In this document: piece by piece, positions 36,840 through 45,018 of the stretch | Position numbering within the stretch: the stretch's first letter is position 1 | Layout: each line of letters begins with the position of its first letter | From: Escherichia coli | Lineage (GTDB): Bacteria; Pseudomonadota; Gammaproteobacteria; Enterobacterales; Enterobacteriaceae | DNA length: 64,000 bases | Assembly: GCF_024223415.1 (NCBI RefSeq) | Contig: NZ_CP100500.1 | Strand: one strand, 5' to 3' | Notes under the pieces: generated by a model | Databases searched by the model: none | The model's input: the letters and a program-made list of their open reading frames with translations, nothing else | Told to the model about the DNA's origin: nothing | Made by a program: the position numbers and the translations under genes

Positions 36840-38062
36840 ATGTCGCAACCCTTACTGAAAGTAACCGACCTGGCAAAAAGCTTTTCCGGCGTATGGGCGC
36901 TGAGCAGCGCCCAGCTCACCGTCGGCACGGGTGAAATTCACGCTTTGCTGGGCGAAAACGGCGCTGGGAAATCCACGCTGTTGAAGGCACTCGCGGGCGC
37001 ACAGCCACAAACGCGCGGGGAGATCTGGTTCAATGGCGAAACGCTGCCGGTGGACGACTCCCCGGTAGAACGGCAGAACAAGGGCATTATCACCATCTAT
37101 CAGGAATTCAACCTGCTGCCCAATATGACCGTTGCGGAAAACATGTTTCTCGGACGCGAACCGCGTAAACGTAACCTGATCGTCGACGAAAAAGCGGTCA
37201 ATCAGGAAGCGCAGGTGATTCTCGATTATCTGCAGCTGAATGTCGCACCCACCACGCCAGTCGCCCGTCTGAGCGTGGCCCAGCAGCAGATGGTGGAGAT
37301 TGCCCGGGCGCTGACCCTCAATGCCAGGCTGATCATCATGGATGAACCCTCCGCCGCCCTGAGTGACAGCGAGGTGGAAAGCCTGCACCGCGTGGTGCGG
37401 GAGCTTAAAAACCGCGGCGTGAGCATTATTTACGTTACTCACCGTCTGCATGAAGTTTTCCAGCTTTGCGATCGTTTCACCGTTTTCCAGGATGGCCGTT
37501 TCACCGGCACCGGCGCAGTGACGGAGACGAACGTAGAGCAGTTGATCCGCCTGATGGTAGGGCGTGATGTGGCCTTTAACCGCCGCCCTGCCAGCGAAAC
37601 CCACCATGAAGACAAACCTGTCCGTTTGTCGGTGAAGGGGTTAAGCCGGGAAAAACCGCCGCTGGATCCACACGGCATCGCCCTGCATGACATCAGTTTT
37701 CACGTCCATGCAGGGGAAGTTCTGGGTATCGCTGGGCTGGTGGGGGCTGGTCGTACTGAGGTAGCGCGCTGCCTGTTTGGCGCCGACGCCTTTACCACCG
37801 GCAGCTTTGAGCTGGACGGCGTGCCGTACCAGCCGCGTGACCCACTTTATGCGCTGGAGCAAGGGCTGGCGCTGGTGCCGGAAGATCGCAAAAAAGAGGG
37901 GGCGGTGCTGGGTCTGTCGATTCGCGACAACCTGTCGCTCTCCTGCCTCTCCTCGCTGTTGCAGTGGCGCTGGTTTGTGAATACCCGCAAAGAGGACGAC
38001 CTGATTGAGTCCTACCGCCAGGCGCTGCAGATCAAAATGGTCAACAGCACGCAAGAGGTGCG
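36840..38062 (+). pseudogene. sugar ABC transporter ATP-binding protein (two-domain, RbsA-like), 3'-truncated by Mu-like prophage insertion
   Basis: First ABC domain complete (GENGAGKST…LSVAQQQMVEIARAL…IIMDEPSAAL); second domain stops after …QIKMVNSTQEV, before the expected LSGGNQQK signature; sequence from about 38063 is phage end. Confidence 0.75.
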
Positions 38063-38110
38063 TGATGCGCCGCGCGATAAATGCGCTCTATCTTGTGCGA
38101 TAAATGACAA
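38063..38110. repeat. Mu-type prophage end: terminal TG followed by two CGATAAATG-containing repeats (putative transposase-binding sites)
   Basis: tgatgcgccgcgcgataaatgcgctctatcttgtgcgataaatgaca; resembles recalled Mu attR terminus TGAAGCGGCGCACGAAAAACGCG and R-site core CGATAAATGCG. Confidence 0.5.
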
Positions 38111-38140: not shown

Positions 38141-38520
38141 TTACATTTCAGGTTGCGTTATGACTGTCCCAGCGGGGTGATAGCGGTAGATCGTTGACAG
38201 TCCAATATCATAGATAATTACCAGCCGCTTTCTGTCATACCCTTTCTGGAGCAATCTTGCGATCTGCTCATGCTGCTCCTTCGTCAGTTTCGGGCGACGC
38301 CCTCCAACTCTCCCTTGTGCTCGCGCAGCAGTCAGTCCTGCCAGCGTGCGCTCAACTATCAGTTCACGTTCCATTTCTGCCAGTGCACCCATCATATGAA
38401 AAAAAGAACCTTCCCATCGGAGTGCTGGTATCGATTAAATCCGTCAGACTGCGAAAATTGACACCTTTTGCGCGTAGCTCTTCTGTGAGCGAAATGAGGT
38501 GTTTCATTCTTCTACCCAAC
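38141..38520 (-). pseudogene. Gin/Pin/Hin-family serine DNA invertase, N-terminally truncated and frameshifted
   Basis: …LISLTEELRAKGVNFRSLTDLIDTSTPMGRFFF then frame slips at A7 tract (38389-38395), continuing …MMGALAEMERELIVERTLAGLTAARAQGRVGGRRPKLT…; catalytic N-terminal about 60 aa missing. Confidence 0.7.
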
Positions 38521-38815
38521 CGTTACAGCTTCCAGACCACCAATGTATCCCCTCTTTTAAGGCACCTTAAAGCGCGTTTCAGGCCTGGTCGTTGCGACTT
38601 AGTTCCGCTCATTTGTCCTCAAAAATTTGTTCACATCCTGCGCACATTAATACATTGCGTTTTGGTCATTTGTTGACACACGTATGTAGCCAATCAGCAT
38701 CAAAAACACTCCCTTTTGAGTGGTTAAAGTAGTGAGATAATGTGGGGAAGATTTGAGAGATAACCCGCCCCCGCAATATCGCATTTAACTATATTGTGAG
38801 GGCGCGTGATACCGT

Positions 38816-39430
38816 TCAGCCAGCAAGCGCCAGTGGCGCTTCCGGCCAGCTGATTTCAGGTGCCTTGCTGATATCCAGTGCGTTCAGATCGTCGATATAA
38901 TCCAGCACGGCATTCAGTTTTGCCGTTTCTTCTGGTGTCAGACTGCGACCTGCCCGCAACTTAAGGTTGATGAGGTCGATGGACTTCATCGCCTGATCCA
39001 CCCGTTCCTGGCGTTGCTGTCTGGCAACCTCCAGCTCTTCGGCTTGCTGCCGTTCTGTATCGGTTACCCACGCCTCACCGTTCCAGGTATCCCATGGTGT
39101 GGCAGGCTGTTTTGTCGTTGTCCCTTCCGGGTAGTCACCTGGTTGGGTAATCTGGACCGGATTACCGTTCTCTGTGCTGTATACCGTCTCTCCACGATGA
39201 TCGGGGACATACTCCCACCCGTCCAGCGTGGACGTCCGGCAAATCACGTAACCCGGCATTGCCTCTGGCGGGGCATCGGCGCATGAATGTGCCGGGGTAC
39301 CCACCCCCAGGGCCAGATACTCCACAGAGGATGAGGTGTATTCCCGGGTTTCCTCATCATAGTGATATACAGTGATATCGCCTGCGAAAGTGGCGATACC
39401 GTTTTCATCCAGAACTGCAGTGTTACTCAT
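38816..39430 (-). CDS. phage tail fiber assembly protein (Tfa, Mu U-like)
   Basis: 204 aa immediately downstream of tail fiber gene with ATGA-type overlap; typical Tfa position. Confidence 0.7.
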   Translation of the reverse strand: MSNTAVLDENGIATFAGDITVYHYDEETREYTSSSVEYLALGVGTPAHSCADAPPEAMPGYVICRTSTLDGWEYVPDHRGETVYSTENGNPVQITQPGDYPEGTTTKQPATPWDTWNGEAWVTDTERQQAEELEVARQQRQERVDQAMKSIDLINLKLRAGRSLTPEETAKLNAVLDYIDDLNALDISKAPEISWPEAPLALAG

Positions 39431-41274
39431 TAAACTGCCCTCACAATATAATTAAAAGCGATATTGCGCGGTCTGATCGCTATCCATCTGTCTTTTTCAT
39501 TACTCACCAGCTTACCGGCTCTGGCTATTGCCCATCTGTCAACTGGTTTTGTGCCGTACAGGATGCCGTTACCGGTTCTGGGTTGATCAGGGGTTATGTT
39601 TATGATGTCGTTATCATGTGATGCAAATGAAATCCCTGCCTGAATATCTGCACCTCCCGCTACGCCGTGGTACGCCTGTATGGAGGTACAAATATATGTT
39701 GCTTCCTGTGTGGATAACAATAAGCGTCCCCTGTCAATCATTCGCAGGTCATCCCATCCACGAATAAATTCCCCGCGCAAATCTGGTAGCCTGAGGTCAG
39801 GGTAGGCCACCGCCAGTTTTGGGTATTTTGTACGCGTGAATGCGGCACCGTTGCACTGTAACCACCCCTCAGGTGGTCTTGACGAAGGCCACGGAACGGG
39901 TACGCCAACTGGCAGCGTCGAGCCTTCTCCTAAACCAAGGTAATCAAGAATATCTTTTATGCTTTGTTTACCCATGATGACGCGGGCAACAGACGAAAAA
40001 ACAGGGGCGTCTGTGATCTGAGCCCAGCGATGAGTGTGGGCTGCCGAGGCTTTGCTGTTGGCAAGGTCATACGCAGCTTTAACAGCTTTTGGTGTGGCCG
40101 CCAGCATTTCGGAATTGCTGTTTGTGGCGCTGCTTAGCTGTACGATGCCTTTGCGTCCGGTGGTTGCATCCTGTCCTGTATACTTGCTCGTCAGCATATC
40201 GTGTAAGGCTTTAACCGCTTTGGGGGTGGCGGCCTCAGTCTCTGACTCACTGTTTGTGGCACTGCTCAGCTGTACGGTGCCTTTTGCCGTCAGCGAGGCT
40301 GATGGCACACCTGTTATCTGATTCCACGGGTGGGTGTGGCTGGCGGGTGCTTTACCGGCTGCAAGGTCATATGCAGCCTTGACGGCTTTTGGTGTGGCCG
40401 CCAGCGTTTCGGAATTGCTGTTTGTGGCGCTGCTCAGCTGTACGATGCCTTTGCGTCCGGTGGTTGCATCCTGTCCTGTATACTTGCTCGTCACCATATC
40501 GTGTAAGGCTTTAACCGCTTTGGGGGTGGCGGCCTCAGTCTCTGACTCACTGTTTGTGGCACTGCTCAGCTGTACGGTGCCTTTTGCCGTCAGCGAGGCT
40601 GATGGCACACCTGTTATCTGATTCCACGGGTGGGTGTGGCTGGCGGGTGCTTTACCGGCTGCAAGGTCATATGCAGCCTTGACGGCTTTTGGTGTGGCCG
40701 CCAGCGTTTCGGAATTGCTGTTTGTGGCGCTGCTCAGCTGTACGATGCCTTTGCGTCCGGTGGTTGCATCCTGTCCTGTATACTTGCTCGTCACCATATC
40801 GTGTAAGGCTTTAACCGCTTTGGGGGTGGCGGCCTCAGTCTCTGACTCACTGTTTGTGGCACTGCTCAGCTGTACGGTGCCTTTTGCCGTCAGCGAGGCT
40901 GATGGCACACCTGTTATCTGATTCCACGGGTGGGTGTGGCTGGCGGGTGCTTTACCGGCTGCAAGGTCATATGCAGCCTTGACGGCCTTCGGTGTGGCGG
41001 CCAGTGTTTCAGAAGTGCTGTTTGTGGCGCTGCTCAGTTGGGTGAATCCTTTTTCTGTCAGTGTCGCGTCAGGGTGGTTACGGGAACGTGCGTGTTCAGC
41101 CAGTGACTGTGCGACTTCCTCCGTTTTCTTCTTCAGCCATTTCGTCCTGTTTGCCAGTTGCCGGGGGGCTCGATTTGATATCCCGTCTGCACCACCCAGA
41201 ACCGGATCTGATGTCTCCAGTTGATAGATATTTTCTTCCCACTTTTCTGTTTCATTCAGGTTTCCCATAATCAA
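39430..41274 (-). CDS. phage tail fiber protein (Mu S-like) with internal 100-aa tandem repeats and C-terminal tail-collar-like domain
   Basis: 614 aa; repeated block …GTVQLSSATNSESETEAATPKAVKA…; C-terminal …PDLRGEFIRGWDD… collar-like motif. Confidence 0.8.
   Translation of the reverse strand: MIMGNLNETEKWEENIYQLETSDPVLGGADGISNRAPRQLANRTKWLKKKTEEVAQSLAEHARSRNHPDATLTEKGFTQLSSATNSTSETLAATPKAVKAAYDLAAGKAPASHTHPWNQITGVPSASLTAKGTVQLSSATNSESETEAATPKAVKALHDMVTSKYTGQDATTGRKGIVQLSSATNSNSETLAATPKAVKAAYDLAAGKAPASHTHPWNQITGVPSASLTAKGTVQLSSATNSESETEAATPKAVKALHDMVTSKYTGQDATTGRKGIVQLSSATNSNSETLAATPKAVKAAYDLAAGKAPASHTHPWNQITGVPSASLTAKGTVQLSSATNSESETEAATPKAVKALHDMLTSKYTGQDATTGRKGIVQLSSATNSNSEMLAATPKAVKAAYDLANSKASAAHTHRWAQITDAPVFSSVARVIMGKQSIKDILDYLGLGEGSTLPVGVPVPWPSSRPPEGWLQCNGAAFTRTKYPKLAVAYPDLRLPDLRGEFIRGWDDLRMIDRGRLLLSTQEATYICTSIQAYHGVAGGADIQAGISFASHDNDIINITPDQPRTGNGILYGTKPVDRWAIARAGKLVSNEKDRWIAIRPRNIAFNYIVRAV
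40021..41045. repeat. 300-bp tandem repeat, about 3.4 copies, inside tail fiber gene
   Basis: Rows 40321-40620 and 40621-40920 are identical as read; 40021-40320 near-identical; plus-strand shadow ORFs recur at 300-bp spacing (40034, 40334, 40634, 40934). Confidence 0.85.
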
Positions 41275-41849
41275 CTTCTCCCGTGGTTATAACTGCCATC
41301 ATGGATGGCGGTATTGTTATAGCGAATGGCCACAGACTGATACTCCAGGCTGGCCAGATGGCAGCGGGCCGGTGCAAATGCAGTGAGCGTCTGACGCAGC
41401 ATCGCGGCCTGATCGTTAGTAATGGGCTGTTTCAGAATAACGCGATAAACCGCCCAGCCTGCTGTATCTCCATGAACAAACAGTCCGTTATGGCTGCGAT
41501 TGCCGTCGTAACTGAGACGACCTGTGCCTTCAATCAGATCCACTTCACCAAAGCCAAAACGGCGGATAACTTCCCGGATTGACCACGGCGTCCCTTTATA
41601 CCGGTGCAGTTCGATGGCTGCTTTTATAAGCATGCGGCGAACATCGTCCGATTCCGCCAGCTCCCAGCCATCGCCAGACAGTGAGAACTGCTCGCCCAGC
41701 CATGGCAGCGCGGAACTGTCGACGATATCGACGAGAAAGACCATCAGTACGCTCAGGTCGATGTTATCCAGCCGTCCTGCCAGTCTTCCCAGCGTCCTGA
41801 GACTGATATCACCCTCAAGCGGTGGCGGGAGTTGTAATGGCTCAGTCAT
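41271..41849 (-). CDS. phage tail protein I-like (Mu gp48-like)
   Basis: 192 aa between baseplate J-like gene and tail fiber, conserved synteny. Confidence 0.65.
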   Translation of the reverse strand: MTEPLQLPPPLEGDISLRTLGRLAGRLDNIDLSVLMVFLVDIVDSSALPWLGEQFSLSGDGWELAESDDVRRMLIKAAIELHRYKGTPWSIREVIRRFGFGEVDLIEGTGRLSYDGNRSHNGLFVHGDTAGWAVYRVILKQPITNDQAAMLRQTLTAFAPARCHLASLEYQSVAIRYNNTAIHDGSYNHGRS

Positions 41850-42945
41850 CAGACACTCCAGTCATGTTAAGTGTGATCGCCGTACAGTTTGCCCATTCGT
41901 TTTCTGCCACCACCCTCAGTGCCGGTGTCACCAGCTCAACCTGGTACACCCCGGAAACGGACAATGCACTGATAATCTGGCTGGGGACAATATCACGCCC
42001 CAGCGCGGTGGCACGTGATGCCACCCAGTTCTGTATGGCGCTGTTAGCGTTGTCCTTTACCAGCCTTGCATCCTGGTCACGATAGATCGTAATCCTGGCT
42101 TCAATGGTGTAATCCACCTTCACTGGTGTTTTAGCCCGCACGGTATCAGTGAGTGGTCTGACTTTTTCGTCCGAACAGAAACTCTCTACCAGCGTCAGAA
42201 CACCGCTGTCCGGCAGGCCGGTGCTCAGCAGCGGATAAATTTCTACTGTGCCGGGAACCGGGGAAAGTACAGCAACATCGACAATGCCGGGATGGGCCTG
42301 CATGGCATGAAAGCGGTATGCGCCACGGCTTCCGGCATTGGTGAATGACTCCGGGGCCAGCCTGATACGCTCCCGGAGCCTGTCATCGTCTTCCTGTTCT
42401 GAACCGCCGGAGCTGGCCGTCAGATTGCTCACCAGCAGGTCGACGTTATCAATCTCATCGAGTAACTGACTGACCTGCGCAGGTTGCCAGCCGTTACCAG
42501 CAGTACCGGGTTCGGTACAGGTGGCCGTGACATTGACCAGTAGCAATCCGGCCTTCAGTACCACATCTGTATCGGTGGCAAAAATAACGCTGTCGGAAGC
42601 GCTGACGCGGGTGCCTGCCGGGATCAGCACATCAATGGCCAGTGCCTCATCCACAGAGAACTGGAGCGTGGTGGTGGCAGGCTGCGCGGCAAGGCGGTAT
42701 ACACCGACCAGTTCACCGAGGTAATCAATCATCGGCTCACGGGCAAAGGCGACAAGATTCTGCTTTGCTGCCTCCTGTACCGCAACCCTGACCAGCATTT
42801 CGCGATAGGCCCACAGGTCAATCAGCAGACGTTCTGCCTGTGCCGGGTACAACGTTTTGCCGGTATCCGCTTCATATTTCGCAATTATTTCTGCCGTGAT
42901 TTTATCGGCATCGCGTTCAATAAAATCGGGTTCTGTCAGCGCCAT
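41842..42945 (-). CDS. baseplate J-like protein (Mu gp47-like)
   Basis: 367 aa, position and size match baseplate J family. Confidence 0.75.
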   Translation of the reverse strand: MALTEPDFIERDADKITAEIIAKYEADTGKTLYPAQAERLLIDLWAYREMLVRVAVQEAAKQNLVAFAREPMIDYLGELVGVYRLAAQPATTTLQFSVDEALAIDVLIPAGTRVSASDSVIFATDTDVVLKAGLLLVNVTATCTEPGTAGNGWQPAQVSQLLDEIDNVDLLVSNLTASSGGSEQEDDDRLRERIRLAPESFTNAGSRGAYRFHAMQAHPGIVDVAVLSPVPGTVEIYPLLSTGLPDSGVLTLVESFCSDEKVRPLTDTVRAKTPVKVDYTIEARITIYRDQDARLVKDNANSAIQNWVASRATALGRDIVPSQIISALSVSGVYQVELVTPALRVVAENEWANCTAITLNMTGVSDD

Positions 42946-43283
42946 AGCAGCTCCTGAGTCCGGGTCTGTCCGTCTGAGCCTTTCCAGCTCACCCGGAGCG
43001 TAAGATGTTCGCCGTCGACGGCGGGTTTAACCGACATAAGCTGGCAGCGGGGTTCCCAGCGCCGGATGGCATCGACGGATTCGCGCACCACATGCGGAAT
43101 GGCCCGGTCTACAGGCCAGTCGATATAAAGATGCAGATTGCTGCCGAACTCCGGGCGATGCGGGTCGCTGCCGCGGGGAGTCCGCAGGATAATTTGAATC
43201 GCCTGCCGGATATCATCCAGCCCCCGGACAATTTCGCCGGGAGCCTGCAGGGCTGGTTGCCAGAATACTGAGGTGGTTTTCAT
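42936..43283 (-). CDS. baseplate assembly protein W (GPW/gp25-like)
   Basis: 115 aa, synteny and size. Confidence 0.7.
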   Translation of the reverse strand: MKTTSVFWQPALQAPGEIVRGLDDIRQAIQIILRTPRGSDPHRPEFGSNLHLYIDWPVDRAIPHVVRESVDAIRRWEPRCQLMSVKPAVDGEHLTLRVSWKGSDGQTRTQELLWR

Positions 43284-43339: not shown

Positions 43340-43867
43340 TCAATGGGAATGGTGATTAGAGTTCTGACCATCAGCAAATATGTCACCCGTTGCATGGGCG
43401 CTTCCGTTGATTTCCAGATCACCATTGAGTGTCGCGTTGCCGTTGATTGTGGTAACTCCCGTGAGGTCAATGTCTTTCCCTTTGAGAGAGATATCAGCGG
43501 CAACCTCCACCACGATACGCTCAATACCTCCTCTGACCGTCAGCGTATGGGTCGCGCGGTTATAACTGAACTCCGCGCCATCAGCGTATTTCGTACCCCG
43601 GACGCTTTTATCACTGAACGGCGGTTTATCGACGTCTGAGTACACCGCGCCCAGAATAACACCGTCCTCGCCGTTGGCATCGAGCAGCACCTCAACCTGC
43701 TCCCCCACGTCAGGGAGCCAGTAATCCTTGTTATCCTGGGTATTGCGCTGCAGCACGTTAAGCCAGTTTGTGCGCAGGTTATCGCATTCAGGCAGACGAA
43801 CGCGGGCCTGAACCCTGTCGGCATCAACGGCACTGACCGTACCGACCTGACGAGTGACACCAGTCAT
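43340..43867 (-). CDS. baseplate spike/assembly protein V-like (Mu gp45-like)
   Basis: 175 aa with C-terminal …NGDLEINGSAHATGD… spike-like repeats. Confidence 0.7.
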   Translation of the reverse strand: MTGVTRQVGTVSAVDADRVQARVRLPECDNLRTNWLNVLQRNTQDNKDYWLPDVGEQVEVLLDANGEDGVILGAVYSDVDKPPFSDKSVRGTKYADGAEFSYNRATHTLTVRGGIERIVVEVAADISLKGKDIDLTGVTTINGNATLNGDLEINGSAHATGDIFADGQNSNHHSH

Positions 43868-45018
43868 TTTTTCTTCTCCTTAATCACCGTCGATGTACTG
43901 CCATCCGGGTGATAAACCGTGAGTTTCTGAGTTTTTTGTTTTTTCCCTCTTGTGACTGGCCCCCGTGCCACTTCCAGCTCTGTGGTGTAGCCGCTGTTAC
44001 GGTCAAACGCATGGCGGGCAGTGGTTATGAGCCATGGCCCGGATAACTGCCCAAAACCCACCAGTTCAATTTTGTTGCCTGCTGTCAGTTGAGGCGTTCC
44101 CGTCAGCGTCAGGGAGCCGTTCTGCTGGTATTCGTTATGTCTGGCCAGTGCTGAATCCGCTTTAATCCGGGCACTGTCCGGGTCGCTGACGCGGCTGTTA
44201 ACTTTAAGTGAGTCAGCGCTGGTAACCTTACCACCTTTGAGCTTTTTGTCGCTTTCACGGGTACCACCATCAGCTTCGTAGACGATCAGTTTTTTACTGC
44301 TGCTTTTCTGGTGTTTTACCTTTGCAGATTTATAGACCCGGTTGATGGTGTCACGCAGGGAAAAGCGGGCCACATCCTGCGGTTTTAACTGCCTGACCGG
44401 CTCCTGACTGCGCAGTGTGGCCAGATGAGAAAAAATCAACTGGTCACTGACCACTTTCACTGCATAACCATACTCGCTGGCCAGCCGGCGCAGAAAACCC
44501 ACGTCGGTTTCAGCATACTGGGTCACCCGGTCGATTCTGATGGACTCAATGCTGCCCACCAGTTTCAGTCGGTGCTTTCTGGCAATCCGCCCCGCAACAG
44601 CTGCCAGAGTGGTGTTCTCAAAACCACGGCTGGATTTAGTCCGCAGAGCACTGTTAACCGAGGTGGCCACCCCACGGATAGCGACAACGGACGCGGGCGA
44701 ACTCACTTCGATCTCGTCTATTGAGAATGTACCGCAGGACAGCAGTTTCTCGCCCTGATAACCCATTTTCAGCGTCAGCGTGTCACCCTTGCCCGGATAC
44801 CACTTATCCAGCCAGCGGCCATCGGTGTCGTCCAGCTCCACCTCAATGGTATCGGACTCATTTTTGATGTTATCGCTCCAGACCACACGGGTGACATAAG
44901 GCGCGATATCAGAGGTGATGTTTTTCTGCAGATACCACATAGTGAACACCGGCGTCAGCACCTCGCTGACGCCGGTTAACGCTGATGTGGCTTGCGCAGT
45001 GCTGTTTATCTCAGCCAT
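43864..45018 (-). CDS. phage late control D-like / baseplate hub protein (Mu gp44-like)
   Basis: 384 aa, synteny downstream of tape measure and gpU-like genes. Confidence 0.7.
   Translation of the reverse strand: MAEINSTAQATSALTGVSEVLTPVFTMWYLQKNITSDIAPYVTRVVWSDNIKNESDTIEVELDDTDGRWLDKWYPGKGDTLTLKMGYQGEKLLSCGTFSIDEIEVSSPASVVAIRGVATSVNSALRTKSSRGFENTTLAAVAGRIARKHRLKLVGSIESIRIDRVTQYAETDVGFLRRLASEYGYAVKVVSDQLIFSHLATLRSQEPVRQLKPQDVARFSLRDTINRVYKSAKVKHQKSSSKKLIVYEADGGTRESDKKLKGGKVTSADSLKVNSRVSDPDSARIKADSALARHNEYQQNGSLTLTGTPQLTAGNKIELVGFGQLSGPWLITTARHAFDRNSGYTTELEVARGPVTRGKKQKTQKLTVYHPDGSTSTVIKEKKK

What the first reader, a model, noticed from the sequence alone, without database searches (positions are those of the whole stretch)
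40021..41045. Near-identical 300-bp tandem repeats (about 3.4 copies) in the tail fiber gene
The repeats encode a 100-aa unit (…HTHPWNQITGVPSASLTAKGTVQLSSATNSESETEAATPKAVKALHDM…). At least two units are identical at nucleotide level, implying recent expansion and a recombination-prone shaft whose length can vary. They are also an assembly hazard.
Basis: seen in the sequence. Interest (0 to 1): 0.45.

Follow-up and report, generated by a model that had tools for sequence, protein, structure and literature searches.

The report
Repeated shaft modules in prophage tail fibre
The tail-fibre gene of a Mu-like E. coli prophage has a real, recently expanded tandem array of a well-known fibre-shaft module, so it is an ordinary example of how phage fibres change length and swap parts.

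Summary
Window 40011-41052 holds about 3.4 copies of a 300-nt unit, and 792 nt (40195-40986) are perfectly periodic. The array lies in frame in a 612-aa tail-fibre gene (39430-41268, minus strand) of a BcepMu/Mu-like transposable prophage in E. coli.

Each 100-aa unit is two Pfam Phage_fiber_2 (PF03406) motifs: a 56-aa module with an HxH motif and a 44-aa module. The 44-aa module corresponds to 'repeated element a', annotated in the phage P1 S gene.

The identical gene sits on two other long public contigs (1.4 and 5.7 Mb) at different insertion sites, so an assembly artefact is very unlikely. Near-identical copies of the phage carry 512- and 412-aa forms that lack exactly one or two units. 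All of those are in draft assemblies, so collapse cannot be excluded. One 412-aa allele has shifted junctions that collapse cannot produce.

In complete genomes, sister alleles differ by exact 56-, 100- or 200-aa indels. The gene is also a mosaic. Its first 171 nt are BcepMu-like, and the rest is 98-99% identical to a P2-like prophage fibre.

The kind of feature is already known, and interest is low to moderate.

The parts
39430..41268 (-). Tail-fibre gene, 612 aa (ATG at 41268; the ORF lister extends it to the TTG at 41274)
   Evidence: ORF. Pfam gives 7x PF03406 plus PF07484. PHROG tail-fibre families match. The exact protein is NCBI WP_180200969.1, 'tail fiber protein'.
41098..41268 (-). 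N-terminal 57 aa, the presumed baseplate-attachment part; a BcepMu-like segment of the mosaic
   Evidence: Gene nt 1-171 are 98-99% identical to the fibres of PhiKM, R9 and elppa9. From nt 172 identity to them drops to 83-85%. The Mu gp49 N-terminus docks on gp48, the gpI homologue (PMC11915804); applying that here is inference by analogy.
40011..41052 (-). 300-nt tandem array, about 3.4 copies
40195..40986 (-). Perfectly 300-periodic tract (792 nt)
40792..41091 (-). Unit 1 (aa 60-159); 39 differences from unit 2, all in its first 105 nt
40492..40791 (-). Unit 2 (aa 160-259)
40192..40491 (-). Unit 3 (aa 260-359); 1 nt different from unit 2
39994..40191 (-). Partial unit 4 (aa 360-425): the last Phage_fiber_2 motif and the last HxH, then divergence into the C-terminal region
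40930..40938 (-). HxH motif 1 (HTH, aa 111-113). Further copies lie at 40630-40638, 40330-40338 and 40030-40038.
   Evidence: Sequence. HxH motifs form octahedral Fe sites in trimeric fibres (PMC6116203); metal binding here is inferred.
39433..39993 (-). C-terminal receptor-binding region (aa 426-612), with the Collar domain at 39763-39906
   Evidence: Pfam Collar, E 5.5e-13. PDB sequence match to the T4 gp37 tip 2XGF, E 4e-13, and to a short tail fibre, 9CUY.
38816..39430 (-). Tail-fibre assembly (chaperone) gene, 204 aa
   Evidence: PHROG 105, E 2e-88. Caudo_TAP Pfam on the identical gene in L006. It is 96.7% identical to the P2-like LH10-b-1 gene and 90% to the BcepMu-like relatives.
41271..41849 (-). 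Baseplate wedge gene gpI/Mu gp48 type, directly upstream
   Evidence: TIGR01634 tail_P2_I scores above its cutoff. PHROG 48 matches. It is 98% identical to the PhiKM, R9 and elppa9 genes.
38141..38700 (-). DNA invertase pseudogene, a remnant of an invertible fibre switch
   Evidence: 94% identical to the intact recombinase of elppa9, but with a 13-bp deletion, two 1-bp indels and a stop codon. The alternative fibre cassette is absent.
38063..38064 (.). Right end of the prophage (...GCGCATCA | host DNA)
   Evidence: Homology to seven other copies of the phage ends here. The host match ends at 38063.

Best explanation
The array is the shaft of a homotrimeric tail fibre of a recently active BcepMu/Mu-like transposable prophage of E. 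coli. The fibre has three parts:
- a 57-aa N-terminus that attaches to the baseplate;
- a shaft of seven Phage_fiber_2 motifs, strung as alternating 56-aa (HxH-containing) and 44-aa modules;
- a C-terminal receptor-binding region with a T4 gp37-like collar domain, folded with the help of the downstream assembly protein.

One 56+44 pair equals 300 nt, and neighbouring pairs are identical in DNA. Unequal homologous recombination, or replication slippage, between them therefore adds or removes whole 100-aa units in frame. This changes shaft length in quantal steps and leaves both functional ends intact. The two identical internal units are the product of such a recent duplication.

The same conserved module DNA also serves as a homology patch for exchange between unrelated phages. 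This gene joins a BcepMu-type N-terminus to the shaft, tip and chaperone of a P2-like prophage fibre, and the join lies just before the first module.

Shown: the anatomy, the homology, the mosaic junction, the identical copies in independent assemblies, and the exact unit indels among relatives. Inferred: the recombination mechanism, trimer and metal binding at HxH, and any effect of length on adsorption or host range.
For: Array and frame. Domain content: 7x PF03406 (E 1e-16 to 5e-20) plus Collar.

Operon context is D-V-W-J-I-fibre-chaperone. The host is E. coli, and the prophage is 94% identical to PhiKM, filed under Bcepmuvirus.

Not an artefact: the gene is 100% identical in L006 (1.37-Mb contig) and L007 (5.68-Mb contig), each at a different insertion site. 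P0133 (5.59-Mb contig) and P0127 (0.98-Mb contig) carry the same module array.

Unit gain and loss:
- The 512- and 412-aa forms equal the window gene minus exactly 300 or 600 nt, in phage copies with 0-2 SNPs per 4 kb.
- L013 has internal-type variants at both edges of its single unit and a private SNP, so its crossover points differ.
- The complete genomes R9 and elppa9 differ by exactly 600 nt plus 10 SNPs. P0003 and P0011 differ by exactly one 56-aa module and nothing else. P0002/P0003 and P0012/P0011 each differ by 100 aa.
- elppa9 has its own 953-nt perfectly periodic run, in repeats only about 85% identical to these, so it expanded independently.

Concerted evolution: modules are 96-99% alike within a protein and 85-90% alike between proteins.

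Mosaic: the breakpoint is at gene nt 171/172. Downstream the gene is 98-99% identical to the LH10-b-1 P2-like fibre.

The module grammar of 3 to 14 motifs occurs in three N-terminal classes: BcepMu-like, P2-like and P1-like plasmid.

The literature notes that repeats let fibre length be adjusted, and describes HxH-Fe sites in fibres (PMC6116203).
Against: No sequencing reads were available, so copy number in the source strain rests on agreement between assemblies.

All 412/512-aa forms of this exact phage are on draft contigs of 141 kb or less, where a 792-nt perfect repeat would be expected to collapse. L008 (512 aa) and L014 (412 aa) even share one insertion site. Real polymorphism within this phage lineage therefore rests mainly on L013.

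Nothing shows that length matters for function. The recombination mechanism (RecA, a phage recombinase or slippage) is not tested.

The AlphaFold monomer model of a unit is unstable across the five models (pLDDT 84 to 35, pTM 0.40), and no solved structure matches significantly. The shaft architecture and the HxH metal sites therefore remain inferences.
Confidence: 0.85

Rival explanations
1. The array, or its copy number, is an assembly artefact. The true gene would have a single unit or a different number of units.
For: Perfect 300-nt repeats spanning 792 nt cannot be resolved by short reads. Public drafts break or shorten exactly here.
Against: The identical 1839-nt gene is on 1.37-Mb and 5.68-Mb contigs at different chromosomal sites. 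Two further long contigs encode the same array. Other lineages show equally perfect arrays in complete genomes, for example elppa9.
Confidence: 0.04
2. The array is real but stable at 3.4 copies in this phage. The 512- and 412-aa forms in public data would then be short-read collapses and not true alleles, so variable length is not ongoing in this lineage.
For: Every shorter form is on a draft contig of 141 kb or less. Each equals the window gene minus exact units, with no other change. L008 and L014 share an insertion site yet differ in assembled copy number.
Against: L013's unit carries internal-type variants only 22 nt after the unique N-terminal sequence, plus a private SNP. A k-mer graph with k>22 cannot produce that by collapse. 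Exact unit indels separate sister alleles in complete chromosomes.
Confidence: 0.3
3. The modules are not a passive spacer. Each would be a small binding or globular domain, for example a glycan-binding bead, so that copy number tunes avidity and not length.
For: In the EHEC prophage protein EPclB, the region with the Pf2 repeat appeared as a globular bead between stalks in electron micrographs (PMC3368898). P2-like relatives insert an 86-aa knob-like segment (my label) between modules.
Against: No binding domain is detected in the modules by Pfam, PDB or NCBIfam. Module sequences are conserved across fibres whose C-terminal tips differ, which fits a structural role and not a specificity role. 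The model shows only strand-strand-helix per motif.
Confidence: 0.08

Closest known systems
Pfam PF03406 Phage_fiber_2 ('phage tail fibre repeat'; Pf2 of EHEC prophage collagen-like fibres)
   Same: All seven motifs match the family HMM, with E values from 7e-16 to 4.5e-20. They share the core G-x-V-Q-L-S-S-x-x-x-S-x-S-E-x-x-A-A-T-P-K-A-V-K.
   Different: Here the motifs form a strict alternation of 56-aa (HxH linker) and 44-aa (short linker) modules, and whole pairs are duplicated identically at DNA level. Pfam describes the single motif only. A 2021 repeat-protein modelling study listed the family among those without a known structure and found only a poor template for it (PMC8078820).
Phage P1 gene S constant segment, 'repeated element a1' (GenBank M81956; Sandmeier, Iida and Arber 1992, cited from the reference list of PMC4728585)
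   Same: The 132-nt 'element a1' encodes KYTAQDASTTQKGLVQLSSATNSDSETMAATPKAVKSIKDLADT, which is the 44-aa module. It is 60.6% identical over 71 aa of the unit. P1-like plasmid fibres in E. coli carry up to 14 of these modules.
   Different: P1 itself has one full and one partial 'a' element, plus different 'b' elements, and a working Cin inversion system. The window has seven motifs and a dead invertase.
Phage Mu tail fibre S (gp49) with chaperone U (gp50) and the Gin-invertible G segment
   Same: The baseplate-fibre-chaperone-invertase gene order is the same. Mu S residues 110-149 are one Phage_fiber_2 motif, the only PDB-deposited sequences that contain it (5YVQ, 8JU3, 9KI1).
   Different: The PDB search matched only one motif in Mu S, and Mu has an active switch. 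Here the invertase is a pseudogene and the alternative cassette is missing.
P2 gpH-type fibres of P2-like E. coli prophages (e.g. LH10-b-1, WP_064755960.1)
   Same: From 'AEHARSRNHPDAT' to the stop codon the DNA is 98-99% identical. This covers the modules, the tip and the chaperone.
   Different: The P2-like gene has a 157-aa P2-type N-terminus and an 86-aa insertion (which I call a knob) between modules. It therefore has no uninterrupted tandem array, and TRF finds none.
HxH iron sites of R-type pyocin fibres, the T4 gp37 tip and the P2 gpV spike
   Same: One HTH per 100-aa unit. In a trimer, six histidines would form an octahedral site like those described (PMC6116203).
   Different: No sequence or fold match to those proteins in this region. 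Metal binding is untested.
T4 gp37 host-range duplications (Tetart et al. 1996, J Mol Biol 258:726; reference taken from PMC3157838, content from my own knowledge)
   Same: Tandem in-frame duplication of a small fibre segment by recombination between conserved motifs.
   Different: In T4 the duplicated segment lies in the adhesin tip and changes host range directly. Here it lies in the shaft, and no phenotype is known.

Membership tests
Pfam PF03406 Phage_fiber_2 repeat | Significant match to the family HMM | tested here: met
   Seven hits, i-Evalue 7e-16 to 4.5e-20, covering model positions 1-40/42.
Myophage tail fibre of P2 gpH / Mu S type | Gene lies directly downstream of the gpI/gp48-type baseplate wedge gene in a V-W-J-I cluster | tested here: met
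   The gene order is 43864-45018 (D), 43340-43867 (V), 42936-43283 (W), 41842-42945 (J), 41271-41849 (I), then the fibre.
Myophage tail fibre of P2 gpH / Mu S type | Followed by a tail-fibre assembly chaperone (Caudo_TAP) | tested here: met
   38816-39430 matches PHROG 105 at E 2e-88. PF02413 is on record for the identical gene.
Myophage tail fibre of P2 gpH / Mu S type | Homotrimeric fibre attached to the baseplate by its N-terminus | not testable with these tools
   Only by analogy with Mu gp49/gp48 (PMC11915804). The structure tool predicts monomers only.
Invertible tail-fibre switch (Mu Gin/G, P1 Cin/C, p15B Min) | Intact serine invertase gene next to the fibre operon | tested here: not met
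   The gene is 94% identical to an intact relative but carries a 13-bp deletion, two frameshifts and a stop codon.
Invertible tail-fibre switch (Mu Gin/G, P1 Cin/C, p15B Min) | Alternative fibre C-terminus and chaperone in inverted orientation, flanked by crossover sites | tested here: not met
   Only 115 nt separate the chaperone and the invertase start. The relatives' roughly 1-kb cassette is absent and no crossover-site core was found.
HxH metal-binding fibre segment | HxH motif positioned so that three chains give six histidine ligands | tested here: inconclusive
   Four HTH motifs are spaced exactly 100 aa apart. The trimer geometry and the metal cannot be tested here.
Phage P1 S-gene 'repeated element a' | 132-nt (44-aa) element with the KYTAQDA...QLSSATNS...AATPKAVK sequence | tested here: met
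   tblastn match of 60.6% over 71 aa lies on the feature annotated 'repeated element a1' in M81956.
Transposable (Mu/BcepMu-like) phage | Insertion at many unrelated chromosomal sites; similarity to classified members | tested here: met
   Seven different host flanks adjoin the same phage end. It is 94% identical to PhiKM, filed under Bcepmuvirus. The transposase end lies outside the window and was not examined.

The most novel reading that the evidence does not exclude
Unit copy number may be a fast, reversible 'ruler'. Recombination within the array would continually produce phage subpopulations with fibres of different length. These would suit hosts with different O-antigen or capsule thickness. 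That would be a bet-hedging device that partly replaces the lost invertase switch in this phage lineage.
Probability: 0.12. Interest if true: 0.5.

Novelty: new member of a known kind. Interest (0 to 1): 0.25.

Why it matters
Practically, this gene will be mis-assembled or broken in short-read E. coli genomes. Copy number reported from drafts should therefore not be trusted.

Biologically, it is a clean small example of two routes by which phage fibres evolve:
- quantal length change by unit gain and loss;
- exchange of tip plus chaperone between unrelated phages (BcepMu-like, P2-like, P1-like) through shared module DNA.

The 56/44-aa module grammar could guide the engineering of fibres or tailocins of chosen length. 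None of this changes current understanding.

Tried and rejected
- TRF on the closest E. coli relatives (L001, L002) found no tandem array, because an 86-aa insertion (which I call a knob) interrupts their modules.
- BLAST spans differed between E. coli hits (1763 vs 1044 nt, H3 vs H16). This turned out to be how the aligned pieces were joined. Both genes are 2235 nt and nearly identical.
- A PDB sequence search with one unit found only Mu fibre S. Pyocin and T4 fibres were not detected in the repeat region.
- NCBIfam has no family above its cutoff for the fibre.
- The AlphaFold2 monomer model of one unit gave strand-strand-helix per motif. The five models disagree (pLDDT 84, 67, 43, 38, 35; pTM 0.40). 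Foldseek against PDB gave only non-significant hits (E >= 0.04), all of them phage fibres. I use this as a hint only.
- No invertase crossover sites were found in the window.
- Literature searches for 'His box' duplications returned nothing, and Sandmeier et al. 1992 is not held. A search for papers on tandem repeats and copy number in prophage tail fibres returned nothing on this module array among the 15 papers listed.
- The antisense 95-aa ORFs at 40034, 40334, 40634 and 40934 (+) are the repeat read on the other strand. I rejected them as genes.

Full report
**Observation.** Tandem Repeats Finder reports a single array at window 40061-41037: period 300, 3.3 copies, 98% matches, no indels, score 1863. 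The repeat finder places three full copies at 40011-40910 and a fourth, partial copy reaching 41052. Comparing the sequence with itself at an offset of 300 nt, I found no mismatch between 40195 and 40986. That is 792 nt of perfect periodicity, so two complete units are identical. In the protein register, units 2 and 3 differ at one nucleotide. Unit 1 differs from them at 39-40 positions, all in its first 105 nt.

**What the gene is.** The array lies in frame in a minus-strand ORF, 39430-41274. Homologues are annotated from the ATG at 41268, giving 612 aa, and that exact protein is in NCBI as WP_180200969.1, 'tail fiber protein'.
- Pfam finds seven Phage_fiber_2 (PF03406) repeats, with E values from 7e-16 to 4.5e-20, and a phage tail Collar domain.
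- The C-terminal region matches the collar of the T4 gp37 tip (2XGF, E 4e-13) in a PDB sequence search.
- Upstream are late-control D, V, W, J and I type baseplate genes. Downstream are a tail-fibre assembly gene (PHROG 105, E 2e-88) and then a DNA invertase fragment.

**Anatomy of the unit.** Each 100-aa unit consists of two Phage_fiber_2 motifs joined by alternating linkers.
- One is a 56-aa module whose linker carries HTH ('APASHTHPWNQITGVP').
- The other is a 44-aa module with the short linker 'SKYTGQ'.
- The four HTH motifs are spaced exactly 100 aa apart.
- In R-type pyocin fibres, the T4 gp37 tip and the P2 spike, HxH motifs from three chains form buried octahedral iron sites. These are thought to register the chains (PMC6116203). 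The same role here is an inference.
- An AlphaFold2 monomer model of one unit gives strand, strand and a 14-residue helix for each motif. The five models disagree (pLDDT 84 to 35, pTM 0.40), and Foldseek finds only non-significant matches, all of them phage fibres.
- A 2021 repeat-protein modelling study listed PF03406 among families without a known structure and found only a poor homology template for it (PMC8078820).
- Among PDB sequences, only Mu fibre S contains the motif.

**Host and phage.** The flanking DNA is the E. coli iol (inositol) island at 99.8% identity. The prophage is 94% identical to Escherichia phage PhiKM, filed under Bcepmuvirus. Its right end is at window 38063/38064, inside a sugar ABC transporter ATP-binding gene that is 1548 nt long in uninterrupted strains. 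The same phage, with 0-2 SNPs per 4 kb, sits next to seven different host sequences in public assemblies. It is therefore a recently active transposable phage.

**Is the array an artefact?** The 1839-nt gene is 100% identical in L006 (1.37-Mb contig) and L007 (5.68-Mb contig), each at a different insertion site. Proteins P0133 (5.59-Mb contig, frameshifted at its ends) and P0127 (0.98-Mb contig, one substitution) have the same module array. An artefact is therefore very unlikely, although I could not examine reads.

**Does the length vary?** The evidence comes from four comparisons.
- The 90%-identity cluster of this protein contains 612-, 512- and 412-aa forms. It also contains at least eight N-terminally truncated proteins that begin inside the array at contig ends.
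- At DNA level, the 512- and 412-aa genes equal the window gene minus exactly 300 or 600 nt.
- All of these shorter forms lie on draft contigs of 141 kb or less. L008 (512 aa) and L014 (412 aa) share one insertion site. Short-read collapse is therefore a serious alternative for them.
- Two lines of evidence are free of that problem. First, L013 (412 aa) carries internal-unit variants only 22 nt after the unique N-terminal sequence, carries them again at its 3' edge, and has a private SNP. Collapse of the window array cannot give that. Second, sister alleles on complete chromosomes differ by exact module indels. R9 and elppa9 differ by 600 nt plus 10 SNPs. P0003 and P0011 differ by one 56-aa module and nothing else. 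P0002/P0003 and P0012/P0011 each differ by 100 aa.

elppa9 has its own 953-nt perfectly periodic run, in repeats only about 85% identical to the window's, so expansion has happened independently. Across 134 related proteins, modules are 96-99% alike within a protein and 85-90% alike between proteins. This is the signature of local duplication or gene conversion.

**Mosaic origin.**
- Gene nt 1-171 and the upstream gpI gene are 98-99% identical to the BcepMu-like prophages (PhiKM, R9, elppa9). From nt 172 identity to them falls to 83-85%.
- From the conserved 'AEHARSRNHPDAT' onward, the gene is 98-99% identical to the fibre of P2-like prophages such as E. coli LH10-b-1. The chaperone gene is 96.7% identical to theirs.
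- The P2-like gene has an 86-aa insertion (which I call a knob) flanked by directly repeated module sequence. Recombination between those flanks would give the knobless arrangement seen here and in P2-like proteins P0004-P0006.
- The same modules, 3 to 14 per protein, occur behind three unrelated N-termini: BcepMu-like, P2-like and P1-like plasmid.
- The unit matches 1852 representatives of 50%-identity clusters, with up to 17 stretches in one protein. It occurs in 386 phage records, including P1, P2-like, lambda-like and Stx phages. Part of the gene matches 640 of 5426 complete E. coli genomes.

**Comparison with what is known.**
- The motif is Pfam PF03406.
- The 44-aa module corresponds to 'repeated element a1' (132 nt), annotated in the constant part of the phage P1 S gene in GenBank M81956. 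I link that record to the work of Sandmeier, Iida and Arber 1992, whose reference I took from PMC4728585. The paper itself is not held.
- That repeats allow fibre length to be adjusted is stated for pyocin fibres (PMC6116203).
- Duplication of a small gp37 segment expanding T4 host range (Tetart et al. 1996; reference via PMC3157838) is a parallel I recall from my own knowledge.
- The window does not qualify as an invertible fibre switch. The invertase carries a 13-bp deletion, two frameshifts and a stop codon, and the alternative cassette is gone.

**Verdict.** The feature is a new allele, or copy-number state, of a long-known modular fibre repeat. It is useful as a warning for assembly and as a tidy example of fibre evolution, but it would not surprise a specialist. 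I rate interest at 0.25.

Noticed in passing
window 38063-38064 and 36840-38063: The prophage right end (...GCGCATCA) lies inside the iol-island sugar ABC transporter ATP-binding gene. The window copy of that gene is cut 324 nt before its normal end. The same phage, with 0-2 SNPs per 4 kb, adjoins seven different host sequences in public E. coli assemblies, so it is a recently active transposable phage.
   Followed up: yes
window 38141-38815: The DNA invertase next to the fibre operon is a pseudogene, with a 13-bp deletion, two 1-bp indels and a stop codon. The inverted alternative fibre-tip and chaperone cassette of relatives (L004, L005) is missing. The same remnant ORFs (an 84-aa and usually a 47-aa Resolvase fragment) are called in every examined locus that reaches this region (L006-L010, L013, L014). 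This apparently active phage lineage has therefore lost its host-range switch.
   Followed up: yes
L008 versus L014: Two draft assemblies have the prophage at the same chromosomal site, with identical flanks, but show 512-aa and 412-aa fibre genes. This is either real variation within one lysogen lineage or different degrees of repeat collapse.
   Followed up: partly
L001 5529-7763 (E. coli LH10-b-1) and L002: P2-like relatives carry an 86-aa insertion (which I call a knob; SDALSMAF...WVEVTNT) between modules, flanked by directly repeated module sequence. It is absent from the window gene and from P2-like proteins P0004-P0006. Its fold and function were not examined.
   Followed up: partly
window 39280-39386 and 38165: The window's chaperone gene differs from all other copies of this phage at four positions clustered within about 110 nt (39386, 39335, 39314, 39280), and at one further position (38165) in the invertase pseudogene. 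The 4 kb upstream of the fibre has 0-1 differences. This may be a small recombination patch.
   Followed up: no
window 40034-40321, 40334-40621, 40634-40921, 40934-41224 (+ strand): Four antisense ORFs of 95-96 aa repeat with the array. They are the repeat read on the opposite strand, and nothing suggests they are genes.
   Followed up: partly
proteins P0064, P0086, P0087, P0094, P0095, P0099, P0103, P0107: Several public records name P2-like homologues of this tail fibre 'short-chain fatty acid transporter'. This looks like a propagated misannotation.
   Followed up: no
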